Assembly (NCBI RefSeq): GCF_988242995.1
Contig: NZ_OZ547043.1
Reading direction: 5' to 3' (one strand)
Length of the DNA: 64,000 nt
Below the pieces are notes generated by a model that had not been told where the DNA came from, searched no databases, and saw nothing but the letters and a program-made list of their open reading frames with translations. Shown here in pieces: positions 11,167 through 19,732 of this stretch (position 1 is the stretch's first letter; every line of letters starts with the position of its first letter). The translations under genes and the position numbers were made by a program.

Positions 11167-13530
11167 GTGGATATGGCAGCAGTAAAAATCTCAGGTGTGC
11201 TGAAAGATGGTGCGGGAAAACCAATACAGAACTGCACTATTCAACTGAAGGCAAAGCGTAACAGCACCACGGTACTGGTGAACACGGTGGCCTCTGAAAA
11301 TCCGGATGAAGCCGGGCGTTACAGCATGGATGTTGAGTATGGTCAGTACAGCGTCACCCTGCTGGTTGAAGGTTTTCCGCCTTCACATGCCGGGACCATT
11401 ACCGTCTATGAAGGTTCCAGACCAGGTACGCTGAATGATTTTCTCGGTGCCATGACGGAAGATGATGTCATGCCGGAGGCATTGCGTCGTTTTGAGGCAA
11501 TGGTGGAAGAAGCGGCACGCAACGCCGAAGCCGCCTCTCAGAGCGCAGCAGCGGCAAAGAAATCCGAAACTGCAGCGGCATCATCGAAGAACGCGGCGAA
11601 AACCTCAGAAACAAATGCAGCTAACAGCGCACAGGCGGCAGCGTCCTCGCAGACTGCATCGGCAAACTCCGCGACAGCAGCCAAAAAATCAGAAACCAAC
11701 GCGAAAAATAGCGAGACAGCCGCAAAGACGAGCGAAACCAACGCAAAGTCCAGCCAGACGGCAGCGAAAACAAGCGAAACGAATGCCAAAGCCAGTGAAA
11801 CTGCGGCAAAAAACAGCCAGGTTGCAGCAGCCCAAAGCGAGAGCGCGGCAGCCGGTTCTGCGACTTCAGCAGCTGGATCAGCAACTGCTGCGGCTAACAG
11901 CCAGAAAGCTGCGAAGACGAGTGAAACTAACGCAAAGTCCAGCCAGACGGCAGCGAAGACCAGCGAAACGAATGCCAAAGCCAGCGAAACTGCGGCGAAA
12001 AACAGTCAGGATGCAGCAGCCCAAAGCGAGAGTGCTGCAGCTGGTTCTGCCACTGCATCAGCCAACAGTCAAAAAGCAGCAAAAACCAGTGAAACCAATG
12101 CAAAGACAAGCGAGACTGCAGCGGCGAACTCGGCGAAAGCATCCGCTGCAAGCCAGACCGCTGCAAAAGCAAGTGAAGACGCAGCCAGAGAGTATGCAAG
12201 CCAGGCAGCAGATCCGTATAAATATGTCTTACAGCCGCTGCCTGATGTGTGGATACCGTTTAACGATTCACTGGATATGATTACGGGCTTTTCGCCATCA
12301 TATAAAAAGATTGTTATTGGTGACGACGAAATAACGATGCCTGGCGACAAGATTGTTAAGTTTAAACGTGCATCGAAAGCAACCTATATTAACAAATCTG
12401 GTGTGTTGACAGAGGCTGCCATTGATGAGCCACGATTTGAACGTGATGGCCTGCTTATTGAGGGGCAAAGAACTAATCTTCTGCTTAATTCAACAAATCC
12501 ATCTAAATGGAATAAGTCAGGCAATCTGGAACTCACAGAAATATCCACGGATTCTTTTAATTTTACTTATGGGAGATTTACTGTAAAAGATACTCTTATT
12601 GGTCAGACAAGTGCTATTAATATCGTAACGATTTCTGGCAGTAAAGGGTTTGATGTCACAGGTGATGAAAAATATGTGACCATTTCATGCCGTGTAAGAA
12701 GTGATGTTGAAAATATAAGGTGTCGTTTAAGATTTGAACACCATGATGGTTATACTTACACTTTTTTGGGAGATGCTTACCTCAATTTATCAACACTTGT
12801 AATTGATAAAACTGGTACTGCTGCAGACCGTATTATTGCAAAGGCTGTAAAAGATGAGGTTACTGGTTGGATTTTCTATCAGGCTACAATTAATGCACTA
12901 GATACAGAGAGCATGATTGGTGCGATGGTTCAATACGCTCCTGTAAAAGGTTCAGGTACAGCATCTGGAGACTATCTGGATATCGCAACTCCACAAGTGG
13001 AAGGTGGATCAAGTGCTTCGTCATTTATTGTAACTGATATAACTGCAAGCACTCGCGCAAGCGATATGGTGACAGTCCCAATCAAGAATAACCTTTATAA
13101 TCTTCCTTTTACGGTTCTTTGTGAGGTACATAAGAACTGGTATAAAACGCCAAATGCAGCACCGCGTGTTTTTGATACCGGCGGTCATCAAACCGGAGCG
13201 GCTATTATTCTTGGCTTCGGTCGTTCAACAGATTACGACGGATTTCCTTATTGTGATATAGGTTTGGCTAACAGACGGGTAAACGAAAACGCATCGCTTG
13301 AAAAAATGGTTATGGGGATGCGTGTAAAGTCAGATCAGTCTACGTGCTCAGTAAGTAACGGGCGTATATCCAGCGAAAAGAAAGCCACATGGTCCTATAT
13401 TCAGAACTCCGCAATTATCCGTATTGGAGGCCAGACTACAGCCGGGTTGCGTCATTTATTTGGTCATGTCAGGAATTTCAGAATATGGCACAAGGCATTG
13501 ACTGATGCTCAGATGGGGGAGTCAATCTAA
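11167..13530 (+). CDS. stf: Side tail fibre protein (Stf-like) with a replaced C-terminal receptor-binding region
   Basis: 787 aa; N-terminal region with Ala/Ser/Thr-rich KTSETNAK-type repeats typical of Stf; the C-terminal ~400 aa are markedly AT-richer by eye and end in a motif (GHVRNFRIWHKALTDAQM) reminiscent of ConA/LamG-like lectin folds. Confidence 0.8.
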   Translation: MDMAAVKISGVLKDGAGKPIQNCTIQLKAKRNSTTVLVNTVASENPDEAGRYSMDVEYGQYSVTLLVEGFPPSHAGTITVYEGSRPGTLNDFLGAMTEDDVMPEALRRFEAMVEEAARNAEAASQSAAAAKKSETAAASSKNAAKTSETNAANSAQAAASSQTASANSATAAKKSETNAKNSETAAKTSETNAKSSQTAAKTSETNAKASETAAKNSQVAAAQSESAAAGSATSAAGSATAAANSQKAAKTSETNAKSSQTAAKTSETNAKASETAAKNSQDAAAQSESAAAGSATASANSQKAAKTSETNAKTSETAAANSAKASAASQTAAKASEDAAREYASQAADPYKYVLQPLPDVWIPFNDSLDMITGFSPSYKKIVIGDDEITMPGDKIVKFKRASKATYINKSGVLTEAAIDEPRFERDGLLIEGQRTNLLLNSTNPSKWNKSGNLELTEISTDSFNFTYGRFTVKDTLIGQTSAINIVTISGSKGFDVTGDEKYVTISCRVRSDVENIRCRLRFEHHDGYTYTFLGDAYLNLSTLVIDKTGTAADRIIAKAVKDEVTGWIFYQATINALDTESMIGAMVQYAPVKGSGTASGDYLDIATPQVEGGSSASSFIVTDITASTRASDMVTVPIKNNLYNLPFTVLCEVHKNWYKTPNAAPRVFDTGGHQTGAAIILGFGRSTDYDGFPYCDIGLANRRVNENASLEKMVMGMRVKSDQSTCSVSNGRISSEKKATWSYIQNSAIIRIGGQTTAGLRHLFGHVRNFRIWHKALTDAQMGESI

Positions 13531-16892: not shown

Positions 16893-17716
16893 CTTGCTTC
16901 CCCCTGCACCGCTGACGGTCGATGTGCCACAAAAGGGTGTTCATCGTCAGTAATAATGCTTTCTTCCGAGCCGTTAAGTGTGACATGGCGCAGTACGCCG
17001 CTAAAAGCCAGCTCCAGGTTCTCGGCTGTAAAAGTGGTGTCTGTCGGCCCGCTTGCCAGGACGGTGCCTTTGACCATGACCGTATAATCGCAAAATGTCG
17101 TGACTGAGCCGAGATTGTGCGTTGAGACAAGCATCGTCTTGCCTTCCGCGCGTAACTCCCTCAACAGGCTGATGATTTTCGCTTCGGTTTTCACATCAAC
17201 GCCCGTAAAAGGTTCATCCAGCAGGATCACATCACCCTGCTGTGCAATCGCTCTCGCCAGAAAGACGCGTTTCTTTTGTCCACCGGAAAGCTCGCCGATT
17301 TGTCGATGGCGAAAATCCACCATATCGACACGTTCCAGCGCATCGGTGACAATCTGACGATCCCTCTTTTTGGCTATACGCAACATACCCATGTGCCCAT
17401 AGCGGCCCATCATCACCACATCTTCCACTAGTACAGGAAATGACCAGTCAACCTCTTCTGACTGAGGGACGTAGGCAACCAGGTTTTTCTGTAGCGCCTG
17501 TCGCGTGGGAATACCCAGAACAGATATCTTTCCGCTGGTCAGACGCACAAATCCCATAATCGCTTTAAACAACGTCGATTTTCCGGAACCGTTTACCCCA
17601 ACCAGAGCGGCAATAGATCCACTTGGTACTGTGAAGGATGCATCGCGCAGTGCTGTGTGCCCGTTACGCCAGGTGACAGTAACATCATTAACGACAATGC
17701 CCGCAGATTGCATCAT
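16889..17716 (-). CDS. sitB: Mn/Fe ABC transporter ATP-binding protein SitB
   Basis: Walker [10 protein letters not shown], signature LSGGQKKR, Walker B ILLDEP. Confidence 0.85.
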
Positions 17717-18630
17717 TATTTCTCCCTTTTCCCGGCTTTAATTCCCTGTACCAGCGTACTGGTAGTAACCTTCAGAAGGTCGATATACGTAGGTACCGGG
17801 CCGTTTTCTGTGCTCAGGGAATCGACATAGAGTACACCGCCGTAGTGCGCGCCGGTTTCACGCGCAACCTGACGCGCTGGTTTATCGGAAATCGTACTCT
17901 CGCTAAAGACTGCCGGGATATGATTTTTCTTCACCATATCAACAACCTTACGTACCTGCTGCGGCGTGCCTTGTTGATCGGCATTAATCGGCCACAGATA
18001 AAGCTCTTTTAGCCCCAAATCGCGTGCGAGATAAGAAAAAGCCCCTTCACTGGTGACCATCCATCGCTGATTCTCAGGGAGTTCAGCAATCTGCTTACGC
18101 AGGGGGGCAAGGGTTTGGGTAATCTTGGCTTTATAAGTATCGGCATTACGTTGGTAGGTTTGTGCATTTGCCGGATCGTATTTTATCAACGCATCACGAA
18201 TATTATCGACGTAAATCAGAGCATTATCTGGCGACATCCAGGCATGGGGGTTAGGTTTGCCCTCATAGGGGCCTTCAGTGATCCCTACTGGCGTCACACC
18301 CGAAGAGACAATTACTTCTGGAACCCCATTAAGATGCTGGTAAAAGCGTTGGAACCACAATTCCAGATTCATACCATTGGCGAGAATCAGTTGTGCCCCC
18401 TGCGCACGTTTAATATCGCCAGGGGTAGGCTGATACTCATGAATTTCTGCACCGGGCTTGGTTATGGATGAGACTTCTGCAGCATCTCCAGCCACGTTTT
18501 TGGCCATATCTGCGATGATGGTAAATGTTGTAATGACCTTGAATTTTTCAGTTGCACTCGCCTGAAATGCGATCGAGCAGGTGAGGGCGAGGCACCCCAA
18601 GAGCATGGTTACTTTTTTTATTGAGTACAT
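17716..18630 (-). CDS. sitA: Periplasmic metal-binding protein SitA (cluster A-I substrate-binding protein)
   Basis: 304 aa with a signal peptide; first gene of the operon; MntR and Fur boxes lie upstream. Confidence 0.85.
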
Positions 18631-18662
18631 AATTTAGTACCTATAGTGAGCAAAATTAGAAC

Positions 18663-18684
18663 AAACATAGCAACGGCTATGTTT
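18663..18684 (-). promoter_or_regulatory. MntR-box palindrome upstream of sitA
   Basis: AAACATAGCAACGGCTATGTTT, a perfect 9-bp inverted repeat matching the MntR operator type, ~33 bp upstream of the sitA start. Confidence 0.6.
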
Positions 18685-18703
18685 TATAGCACAACCTATA
18701 CAA

Positions 18704-18722
18704 AATGAAAATGATTATCATT
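18704..18722 (-). promoter_or_regulatory. Fur box upstream of sitA
   Basis: AATGAAAATGATTATCATT; about 16 of 19 positions match GATAATGATAATCATTATC. Confidence 0.55.
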
Positions 18723-18840
18723 AGCAGCTTTGGGGCCCAAAACAGGGATTAGGTTGTTTCCTGCTGGCGACGCGTTATTGAGGAAAAAAGTAAGGCAGCT
18801 AGTAGGCTTTGAAATGACTTGATGAGGAAAATTGTTGATG

Positions 18841-18892
18841 GCAAAAATGGGGCAAAGCGCTGCAAAAGGGGCAAAAAAGGGGCAAAAAAAGA
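18841..18892. repeat. Phased G-GCAAAA A-tract repeats (five copies at ~10-11 bp spacing); predicted intrinsically bent DNA
   Basis: gcaaaaatggggcaaagcgctgcaaaaggggcaaaaaaggggcaaaaaaag, with repeat starts at about 18841, 18852, 18862, 18871 and 18882. Confidence 0.5.
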
Positions 18893-19184
18893 GTGGGTTA
18901 TCGTAGCTTATTGTTGTCGCTGATGATATTTAACACATTGAAAAATAAGTAAAATACTTATGAGTCAGAGAGTTGTGATTTTTGCCCTTACTTGTTCAGG
19001 TTGTATTGTTCTTTCTTACTAAATTCTTGATTTTGCGACATTTAAAAGCGACTCAATTCGTTATATGGCATCAGAAGAGTATGCGTCATGCCGGAACGCC
19101 CAGCATAAGAAATCTGATATAAAAACTGTGGCGTGTATGGTACGGATTAGAGGGGAAAATGTCAGCACATTTGCGAAATGAATC

Positions 19185-19210
19185 AAAAAGCCCGCAGGAA
19201 TGTGCGGGCG
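19185..19210 (-). terminator. Intrinsic terminator downstream of uspF
   Basis: On the minus strand, a gcccgca-cattcc-tgcgggc hairpin followed by TTTTTG. Confidence 0.55.
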
Positions 19211-19216
19211 TTAGTG

Positions 19217-19732
<516 letters not shown>

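What the first reader, a model, noticed from the sequence alone, without database searches (positions are those of the whole stretch)
18841..18892. Helically phased G-GCAAAA repeat array upstream of sitA
Five GCAAAA(A) A-tracts recur at 9-11 bp spacing, the classic signature of intrinsically curved DNA. It lies ~210-260 bp upstream of sitA and near the presumed prophage/chromosome junction, so it could be an upstream activating bend, a nucleoid-protein nucleation site, or part of the attachment region.
Basis: seen in the sequence. Interest (0 to 1): 0.35.

Follow-up and report, generated by a model that had tools for sequence, protein, structure and literature searches.

The report
Integrase docking sites at prophage end
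The phased G-GCAAAA repeats are real, but they belong to the right attachment site of a Rac-type prophage, where they most likely dock the phage integrase during insertion and excision; they are not a control element of the neighbouring sitA metal-uptake gene.

Summary
Five GCAAA(A/G) units start at 18841, 18852, 18862, 18871 and 18882, 9-11 bp apart. This is the densest such cluster in the window (0 of 300 shuffles reach it) and one of its two strongest predicted bends.

The sitA interpretation is largely wrong. The array is the outermost conserved part of the phage arm of attR of a Rac-type prophage inserted in ttcA. Its edge lies 102-152 bp from the 26-bp core (18992-19017). It is identical in E. 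coli K-12 Rac, which has no sit genes. About 950 plasmid copies of sit lose homology at about 18845.

The conserved element is GGGGCA, not the A-tract. The same motif, in the same orientation and at 11-bp spacing, sits on the other arm next to intR. It also sits on both arms of attP in PHB10, 933W-type and VT1-Sakai Stx phages, a Yersinia phage and Gifsy-2. All of these encode integrases with the Arm-DNA-bind_2 domain.

Best explanation (about 0.7): a cluster of arm-type integrase-binding sites, like lambda P1/P2 and P'1-P'3. Published XisR gel shifts, mapped here, argue against excisionase sites.

This is a new member of a known kind, of modest interest.

The parts
18840..18847 (+). Arm site slot 1 (most distal from the core): tGGCAAAAA, a partial G run. 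It marks the outer boundary of the conserved P arm.
   Evidence: Homology with K-12 Rac starts at 18839. Four unrelated left flanks converge here.
18849..18857 (+). Arm site slot 2: GGGGCAAAG (GGGGCAAAA in K-12).
   Evidence: GGGGCAAA is invariant in 8 aligned att arms, including PHB10.
18862..18867 (+). Arm site slot 3, the weak central slot: ctGCAAAA, no G run.
   Evidence: The central slot is degenerate in PHB10 (tttcgc) and absent in the 933W-type array, where spacings are 11, 20 and 11. Most variable columns lie just 5' of it.
18868..18878 (+). Arm site slot 4: GGGGCAAAAAA.
18879..18890 (+). Arm site slot 5 (closest to the core): GGGGCAAAAAAA.
18931..18943 (-). IHF-like site between the array and the core. 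TAACACATTGAAA is TTTCAATGTGTTA on the minus strand, one mismatch to WATCAANNNNTTR.
   Evidence: The aligned position in PHB10 is AATCAATTAGTTA, a full consensus match, and in the 933W-type attP it is TTTCAATCTGTTA. TAAC..ATTGA is invariant in the alignment. Binding is not shown.
18979..18987 (-). Inverted copy of the motif (GGGCAAAAA on the minus strand), 5 bp from the core. Possibly an extra site.
   Evidence: It is conserved in the E. coli variants but not in PHB10, so its status is uncertain.
18992..19017 (.). att core: the 26-bp identity TTGTTCAGGTTGTATTGTTCTTTCTT shared by attL and attR.
   Evidence: window 18992-19017; K-12 attR and attL. The K-12 annotation ends Rac at this point.
18990..19040 (-). 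ttcC' remnant, the original 5' end of ttcA displaced by the prophage. It contains the IHF-consensus-like TAAATTCTTGATT at 19020-19032.
   Evidence: K-12 annotation of ttcC, alignment. PMC8407004 reports no IHF peak at this attR-side site.
18839..18845 (.). Junction between the sit cargo module and the Rac P arm. The 7 bp TGGCAAA are shared by both homologies.
   Evidence: Plasmid sit homology ends at about 18845. K-12 Rac homology starts at 18839.

Best explanation
The array is the P-arm cluster of arm-type binding sites for the prophage's tyrosine integrase (IntR type). It sits in attR of a Rac-type lambdoid prophage inserted in the 5' end of ttcA. Each GGGGCA(A)n unit would be bound by the small N-terminal arm-binding domain of one integrase protomer. 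The roughly 10.5-bp spacing puts the bound domains on one face of the helix. A conserved IHF-like site between the array and the core would fold the arm back. Integrase molecules anchored on the arm could then deliver their catalytic domains to the core, as in the lambda intasome. A matching pair of sites lies on the other arm next to intR. The A-runs that follow each GGGGC in the Rac lineage also make the segment intrinsically bent, which may help wrapping but is not the conserved feature. The proximity to sitA is a consequence of sitABCD being cargo inserted just inside the outer limit of attP. Shown here: location, conservation, both-arm distribution, presence of the integrase arm-binding domain, and predicted curvature. 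Inferred: which protein binds, and the folding geometry.
For: (1) Location. K-12 annotation places the Rac right end and ttcC' at the aligned position. The core is at 18992-19017 and the array edge is 102-152 bp from it.
(2) The array is identical in K-12 and SE11. Homology begins exactly at its first repeat, although the DNA to the left differs (sit; ynaM side; tail-fibre side; PHB10).
(3) Within the array the GGGGCAAA cores are invariant in 8 att arms, while spacer positions vary.
(4) The same motif occurs on the other arm: K-12 attL has GGGGCAAAttGGGGGCAAActttGCAA between the core and the intR stop. It is identical in FDAARGOS_497, a strain 96-97% identical to the window here.
(5) In free-phage or rejoined attP of relatives, TGCCCC/GGGGCA units lie on both arms, all in one orientation, mostly 11 bp apart. 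PHB10 (Int 69% identical) has 2 plus a 5-slot array with spacings 11, 10, 9, 12. A 933W-type phage (43.5%, attB wrbA) has 2 plus 4 in slots 1, 2, 4 and 5. The Yersinia phage and VT1-Sakai (yehV) show it, as does Gifsy-2. ttcA prophages from IMG/VR keep the P' pair with different spacers.
(6) GGGGCA occurs only 29 times on both strands of the 64-kb window, so about 0.1 is expected per attP and orientation.
(7) All these integrases carry Pfam PF12167 Arm-DNA-bind_2 at their N-terminus. PMC8138268 classes this domain as the arm-binding domain of the IntBPP-1 subgroup.
(8) A more distant member, Pseudomonas phage BR319a (31%), has a different repeat, GTTCCCA. It keeps the design of 11-bp pairs on both sides of a tRNA-like core.
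(9) The IHF-like site between array and core is conserved. IHF binding at the attL-side site is reported in PMC8407004.
(10) XisR did not shift the AttM probe of PMC4632033, which I mapped to K-12 1434668-1434958. That probe contains the whole array and P arm.
Against: No binding experiment exists for IntR on these sites. Every phage that carries the GGGGCA motif also encodes a DUF1233 excisionase, so co-occurrence cannot separate Int from Xis. RDF sites are typically direct repeats one helical turn apart (PMC7498355). Five contiguous slots is more than the P-arm sites of lambda. IHF was not detected at attR in the K-12 GeF-seq study. The window does not contain attL or intR, so the cognate integrase of this particular strain was seen only in a related genome.
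Confidence: 0.7

Rival explanations
1. The repeats are binding sites of the excisionase XisR (DUF1233 recombination directionality factor). XisR would polymerise on helically phased direct repeats in the P arm and bend it to favour excision, as lambda Xis does at X1-X1.5-X2.
For: The array is made of direct repeats one helical turn apart, the usual layout of RDF sites (PMC7498355). It is on the arm far from int, which carries the Xis sites in lambda (textbook knowledge). All GGGGCA-bearing phages examined encode a DUF1233 Xis. XisR does bind a 294-bp attR fragment that includes the array.
Against: XisR did not shift the AttM probe, which contains the entire array and P arm up to the core edge. 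The motif is also present on the int-proximal arm in all six lineages, unlike known RDF sites, which sit on one arm. The Xis proteins are more diverged (27-33% identity to XisR) than the integrases (about 43%), yet the motif is unchanged.
Confidence: 0.15
2. The array acts through its shape. It would be an intrinsically curved A-tract segment that works as an upstream activating bend for sitA, or as a nucleation site for H-NS or another nucleoid protein, independent of site-specific recombination.
For: Predicted curvature is among the top two peaks in 64 kb under two wedge models. H-NS is reported to control excision of rac alone among the nine K-12 prophages (PMC4632033). The array is 211-262 bp upstream of sitA.
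Against: The array is not linked to sit. It is present unchanged where sit is absent, and about 950 plasmid sit operons lack it. The Fur box (18707-18725) and the MntR palindrome (18663-18684) are much closer to sitA. Across relatives GGGGCA is conserved and A-tracts are not: the Gifsy-2 sites have low predicted curvature.
Confidence: 0.1
3. The repeat encodes a small lysine- and glycine-rich peptide on the + strand. PGAP annotates a 57-aa hypothetical protein across the array in SE11 and other strains.
For: There is an annotated CDS in SE11. An open frame ...WQKWGKTLQKGQKRGKKR... is present in K-12 and SE11.
Against: In the window the upstream part of that frame, including its start, is replaced by sit-linked DNA. 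The frames are broken and the peptides unrelated in the PHB10 and 933W-type arrays, although the DNA motif is kept. The motif also occurs inside the int 3' coding region and on the other arm.
Confidence: 0.02

Closest known systems
Arm-type Int sites of bacteriophage lambda attP (P1, P2; P'1-P'3)
   Same: A short motif distinct from the core is repeated on both arms. The int-proximal sites are tandem at about 11-bp spacing and abut the int stop codon. The distal arm reaches about 150-165 bp from the core. IHF-type sites lie between the arm sites and the core. The integrase has a separate N-terminal arm-binding domain (the lambda layout is from textbook knowledge).
   Different: The motif is different (GGGGCA versus lambda's C/AAGTCACTAT). 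The P arm here has five contiguous phased slots rather than two separated sites. The arm-binding domain family is PF12167 (IntBPP-1 subgroup), not the lambda Int N-domain family. All sites are in one orientation on both arms. Binding has not been demonstrated.
attP of other IntBPP-1-subgroup phages (933W-type and VT1-Sakai Stx phages, Gifsy-2, PHB10)
   Same: They share the GGGGCA/TGCCCC motif, its orientation, the 11-bp pairing, the two-arm layout, and an Arm-DNA-bind_2 Int plus a DUF1233 Xis.
   Different: They differ in core and attB (wrbA, yehV and others), in number of P-arm sites (2-5), and in A-tract content and predicted curvature, which are highest in Rac and lowest in Gifsy-2. I found no description of arm sites for any of them in the searchable literature.
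Excisionase (RDF) site arrays such as lambda X1-X1.5-X2 or 186 Apl sites
   Same: Direct repeats one helical turn apart in an att arm, associated with DNA bending.
   Different: Those sites occupy one arm only. Here the motif is on both arms, and the array-containing probe was not bound by XisR in the published gel shift.

Membership tests
Arm-type integrase-binding sites of a heterobivalent tyrosine-recombinase att site | Lies in the element-derived arm of an att site, outside the core crossover region | tested here: met
   The core is at 18992-19017 and the array at 18840-18890. The K-12 Rac end and ttcC' annotation align here.
Arm-type integrase-binding sites of a heterobivalent tyrosine-recombinase att site | The cognate integrase has a dedicated N-terminal arm-binding domain | tested here: met
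   IntR residues 5-69 match PF12167 Arm-DNA-bind_2 (E = 3.9e-26). intR and xisR are intact in the related sit-carrying prophage of FDAARGOS_497. The window itself does not reach intR.
Arm-type integrase-binding sites of a heterobivalent tyrosine-recombinase att site | The same motif is present on both P and P' arms and is unrelated to the core sequence | tested here: met
   attL has GGGGCAAAttGGGGGCAAA next to the intR stop. The P arm has five slots.
Arm-type integrase-binding sites of a heterobivalent tyrosine-recombinase att site | The motif tracks the integrase arm-binding domain rather than the core or attB across related elements | tested here: met
   GGGGCA is kept in phages using ttcA, wrbA, yehV and other sites. 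The more distant Pseudomonas member has GTTCCCA pairs in the same layout.
Arm-type integrase-binding sites of a heterobivalent tyrosine-recombinase att site | Direct, sequence-specific binding by the integrase N-terminal domain, and a requirement for recombination | not testable with these tools
   This needs EMSA or footprinting and att-site mutagenesis. No such data were found.
Arm-type integrase-binding sites of a heterobivalent tyrosine-recombinase att site | An accessory bending-protein site lies between the arm sites and the core | tested here: inconclusive
   A conserved IHF-like sequence lies at 18931-18943 and at aligned positions in PHB10 and the 933W type. GeF-seq found IHF at attL but not attR in K-12.
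Excisionase (RDF, DUF1233 XisR) binding-site array | Bound by the RDF | tested here: not met
   I mapped the published probes. AttM (K-12 1434668-1434958) contains the whole array, and PMC4632033 reports that XisR did not shift it. This rests on one published gel shift.
Excisionase (RDF, DUF1233 XisR) binding-site array | Sites confined to one arm of attP | tested here: not met
   The motif is on both arms in six lineages.
Promoter-upstream curved DNA (A-tract UAS) for sitA | Phased A-tracts with predicted intrinsic curvature | tested here: met
   A-tract spacing is 9-11 bp. Predicted curvature is rank 2 of 64 kb with the Bolshoy-Trifonov model and rank 1 with the AA-wedge model.
Promoter-upstream curved DNA (A-tract UAS) for sitA | Co-inheritance with the promoter it serves | tested here: not met
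   The array is present without sit in K-12, SE11 and others. About 950 plasmid sit operons lose homology at about 18845.
Promoter-upstream curved DNA (A-tract UAS) for sitA | Anomalous gel mobility and an effect on sitA transcription | not testable with these tools
   This needs an experiment.

The most novel reading that the evidence does not exclude
The whole IntBPP-1 integrase subgroup (Rac, 933W-type and VT1-type Shiga-toxin phages, Gifsy-2) may use one shared arm-site code, GGGGCA at 11-bp spacing. Integrases of co-resident prophages could then occupy each other's arms and cross-regulate excision. In the Rac lineage the sites have additionally been extended with A-runs into a five-slot, strongly curved segment. 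That segment might replace an accessory bend, or serve as the H-NS target behind the reported rac-specific control of excision by H-NS.
Probability: 0.2. Interest if true: 0.5.

Novelty: new member of a known kind. Interest (0 to 1): 0.3.

Why it matters
The result reassigns a conspicuous repeat next to a virulence-associated metal transporter from gene regulation to prophage mobility. If it holds, it defines the outer limit of the functional attP of Rac-type phages, about 165 bp on one side and 85-90 bp on the other. It gives a testable arm-site consensus, GGGGCA, for an integrase subgroup that includes Shiga-toxin phages and Gifsy-2. I found no arm sites described for that subgroup. It also explains why cargo such as sitABCD, pinR-ynaE-ynaM or a diguanylate cyclase gene is always inserted just outside the first repeat. 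On excision, sitABCD would leave the chromosome directly beside attP.

Tried and rejected
- Small-ORF reading: PGAP annotates a hypothetical protein over the array in SE11. The frame is not conserved, so I rejected it.
- Known RNA family: the only Rfam hit in 18500-19300 is a sub-threshold STnc310 match at the uspF terminator, outside the array.
- Promoter and terminator scan: nothing meaningful at the array. The palindrome reported at 18663-18684 is the MntR-type box.
- IMG/VR scan for integrase relatives: 80 loci came back, but nearly all contigs end at the int stop codon. Only five showed the P' arm and none the P arm.
- pAPEC-O2-ColV as a natural array deletion next to sitA: the record has 100 N followed by the string GAATTCACTAGTGATT, which I recognise from memory as cloning-vector polylinker, directly after the attP junction. 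I do not rely on it.
- Separating Int from Xis by co-occurrence: not possible, because every GGGGCA-bearing phage has both protein families.
- Gifsy-1 Xis sites as a comparator: that Xis aligns with AlpA and P4 Vis type proteins; I did not scan it against Pfam, and the paper gave no site sequences to compare.
- An 11-bp match GGTTATCGTAG between the P arm and the intR stop region: chance probability is about 0.04 and it is not conserved in PHB10, so I left it as a passing note.

Full report
**1. Observation**

The window is E. coli chromosome. sitABCD lies on the minus strand (sitA 17716-18630), followed by uspF, ompN and ydbK/nifJ.

Between sitA and uspF the sequence reads tGGCAAAAAtGGGGCAAAGcgctGCAAAAGGGGCAAAAAAGGGGCAAAAAAAgag. 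The GCA starts are at 18841, 18852, 18862, 18871 and 18882, with spacings of 11, 10, 9 and 11 bp.

- Tandem Repeats Finder reports a period-11 array at 18840-18888.
- Five GCAAA within 52 bp is the single densest cluster in the window. None of 300 shuffles reaches five, and a Poisson estimate expects 0.006 such clusters.

The second unit is GCAAAG and the third lacks the G run.

**2. Curvature**

I implemented a dinucleotide wedge model, using Bolshoy-Trifonov parameters recalled from memory. I measured the angle between consecutive 15-bp axis segments.

- The array gives 35.4 degrees at 18875. This is the second highest peak in 64 kb (99.99th percentile) and close to a synthetic phased-A6 control at 38.7.
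- With an AA-wedge-only model it is the highest peak.

The physical prediction of a strong intrinsic bend therefore stands.

**3. What the array belongs to**

A search of 5,426 complete E. coli genomes with 18790-18960 found matches in 1,509 genomes. Only about 500 of them cover the sit-proximal part.

K-12 strains match from 18839 onward at 98.4% identity. In MG1655 the matching DNA is the last ~150 bp of the cryptic prophage Rac, just inside its annotated right end (1434958) and the ttcC' pseudogene. The array is identical in K-12 except that GCAAAG is GCAAAA.

The 26-bp sequence shared by Rac attL and attR, TTGTTCAGGTTGTATTGTTCTTTCTT, is at window 18992-19017. The displaced 5' end of ttcA is at 18990-19040 on the minus strand.

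FDAARGOS_497 is 96-97% identical to the window across this region. There the same arrangement closes a roughly 50-kb Rac-type prophage: ttcA-intR-xisR-...-tail genes-sitDCBA-attR-uspF.

The array is therefore in the phage-derived arm of attR, with its edge 102-152 bp from the core.

**4. It is not a sit element**

The DNA to the left of the array differs between strains, and all versions converge at the first repeat:

| Strain or phage | Left flank |
|---|---|
| This window | sit module |
| K-12, SE11, LR-62-2 | ynaM side |
| CH4811, ETEC1748, Rac-SA53 | tail-fibre side |
| PHB10 | another sequence |

Conversely, about 950 plasmids carry sitABCD with an upstream region about 85% identical to the window. 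That homology ends at about 18845 and is followed by unrelated DNA and IS1.

The 7 bp TGGCAAA (18839-18845) are shared by both homologies and mark the junction. The Fur-type box (18707-18725) and the MntR-type palindrome (18663-18684) lie much closer to sitA.

**5. The same motif is on the other arm**

In K-12 attL, the 75 bp between the core and the intR stop codon contain GGGGCAAAttGGGGGCAAActttGCAA. The orientation is the same and the spacing is 11 bp. The sequence is identical in FDAARGOS_497.

ttcA prophages from IMG/VR whose integrases are 69-71% identical keep the pair but change the spacer: TGCCCCcaattTGCCCC, TGCCCCttataTGCCCC, TTGCCCActgcaTGCCCC, TTGTCCCgtctaTGCCCC.

**6. Relatives with a contiguous or rejoined attP**

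| Phage | Int identity to IntR | attB | P' arm (next to int) | P arm |
|---|---|---|---|---|
| PHB10 | 69% | ttcA-like core | pair | five slots, spacings 11, 10, 9, 12; central slot degenerate |
| 933W-type Stx1 phage | 43.5% | wrbA | GTGCCCCagacGTGCCCC inside the int 3' end | TGCCCC at slots 1, 2, 4, 5 (spacings 11, 20, 11), 126-173 bp from the annotated crossover |
| VT1-Sakai | 43.1% | yehV | TGTCCCatgtaTGCCCC | TGTCCCatacaTGCCCCattgaTGCCCC |
| Yersinia phage vB_YenM_06.16-1 | 42.5% | not determined | GGGGCA | GGGGCAagaatGGGGCA |
| Gifsy-2 | not measured against IntR | not determined | GGGGCAgtgatGGGGCA | GGGGCAtggatGGGGCA |

In every case all units point the same way relative to int. GGGGCA occurs 29 times on both strands of the whole 64-kb window, so about 0.1 is expected per attP and orientation.

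In an alignment of eight Rac-type arms the GGGGCAAA cores are invariant and the variable columns fall in the spacers.

Predicted curvature is high in PHB10 (30.5), the 933W type (29.3) and the Yersinia phage (26.4). It is low at the Gifsy-2 sites. The element under selection is therefore GGGGCA at one-turn spacing. The A-runs, and the strong bend, are a lineage-specific elaboration.

**7. The proteins**

IntR and all the integrases above carry Pfam PF12167 Arm-DNA-bind_2 at the N-terminus, followed by the catalytic domain. Smyshlyaev et al. (PMC8138268) place this domain in the IntBPP-1 subgroup, which includes BPP-1, Stx2a phage and Gifsy-2. They describe it as a canonical three-strand, one-helix arm-binding fold and call the members putative integrases.

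A more distant member, Pseudomonas phage BR319a (31% identical), has a different repeat, GTTCCCA. It still occurs as 11-bp pairs on both sides of a tRNA-like core.

**8. Int or Xis?**

All GGGGCA-bearing phages also encode a DUF1233 excisionase. RDF sites are typically direct repeats one turn apart (PMC7498355). Xis is therefore the serious rival. Three points favour Int:

- The motif is on both arms, including the int-proximal arm.
- The Xis proteins are more diverged (27-33% identity) than the integrases, yet the motif is unchanged.
- In Liu et al. 2015 (PMC4632033), XisR shifted a 294-bp AttR probe but not a 291-bp AttM probe.

I mapped the primers of that study. AttR is K-12 1434789-1435082: array, arm, core and flank. 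AttM is 1434668-1434958: upstream DNA, the whole array and the whole arm up to the core edge. The array is therefore not sufficient for XisR binding in that assay. This rests on one published gel shift.

**9. Accessory site**

Between the array and the core, TAACACATTGAAA (18931-18943) is one mismatch from the IHF consensus on the minus strand. Its counterpart in PHB10 is a perfect match (AATCAATTAGTTA), and the 933W-type attP has TTTCAATCTGTTA at the equivalent distance.

A GeF-seq study found an IHF peak at the consensus site next to Rac attL and none at attR (PMC8407004). IHF use is plausible but unproven for this site.

**10. Model**

The array is the P-arm cluster of arm-type sites.

- Integrase N-domains dock on GGGGCA units on one helical face.
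- A bend at the IHF-like site, helped by the intrinsic A-tract curvature, folds the arm so that the catalytic domains reach the core.
- The pair next to int plays the role of lambda P'1-P'3.
- Measured from the core centre, the arms are about 165 bp (P arm) and 85-90 bp (P' arm).
- Cargo such as sitABCD sits immediately outside the first repeat because anything further in would destroy attP.

**11. Other readings**

- The + strand ORF annotated in SE11 is not conserved.
- No Rfam family matches the array.
- An H-NS role is not excluded. H-NS is reported to control excision of rac alone among the K-12 prophages, and the array is the kind of curved AT-rich DNA H-NS prefers. That link is speculative.

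**12. Novelty**

Arm-type sites are a textbook category. I found no description of them for Rac, the 933W-type or VT1-type Stx phages, or Gifsy-2 in the searchable literature. This is best filed as a new member of a known kind. It corrects the sitA interpretation and is of modest general interest.

Noticed in passing
window 18663-18725: The sitA promoter region carries a perfect MntR-type palindrome, AAACATAGCAACGGCTATGTTT (18663-18684), and a Fur-box-like GAAAATGATTATCATTAGC (18707-18725). The terminator scan reports the palindrome as a hairpin.
   Followed up: partly
L094 (pAPEC-O2-ColV NC_007675.1) 1780-2160: This plasmid record has a chromosomal-type sitA upstream region joined to a collapsed array (31 bp missing). 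An intact P-core-P' attP junction follows, then about 45 bp of the intR 3' end, 100 N, and the string GAATTCACTAGTGATT, which I recognise from memory as cloning-vector polylinker. It is either a capture of sit from an excised phage circle or an assembly or gap-closing artefact.
   Followed up: partly
window 18896-18906 and K-12 attL (L004 1991-2001): The 11-mer GGTTATCGTAG directly follows the array in the P arm. It is also the last codons and stop of intR (R-L-S-stop), next to the P' sites and in the opposite orientation. Chance probability is about 0.04. K-12 has GGATTATCGTAG in the P arm and PHB10 lacks it.
   Followed up: partly
L100 (E. coli CH4811) 340-900: Here the array and P arm are followed by core plus P' arm (attP-like) and a truncated integrase pseudogene, rather than ttcC'-uspF. 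This suggests tandem or rearranged Rac-type elements.
   Followed up: no
window 18992-19040 / PMC4632033: By subtracting the probes, the published XisR gel shift places the XisR binding determinant in or to the right of the core (K-12 1434959-1435082; window about 18992-19115). That is on the bacterial side of attR, which is unusual for an excisionase.
   Followed up: no
window 12078 and 11492: Two other very high predicted-curvature peaks (37.3 and 32.8 degrees) fall in the prophage tail-fibre region. The one at 12078 is the strongest in the window under the Bolshoy-Trifonov model.
   Followed up: no
phages collection, ON032529.1 31799-31977: A record named Salmonella phage SPF_0923 carries a 179-bp stretch 100% identical to the window's array, P arm and core.
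   Followed up: no
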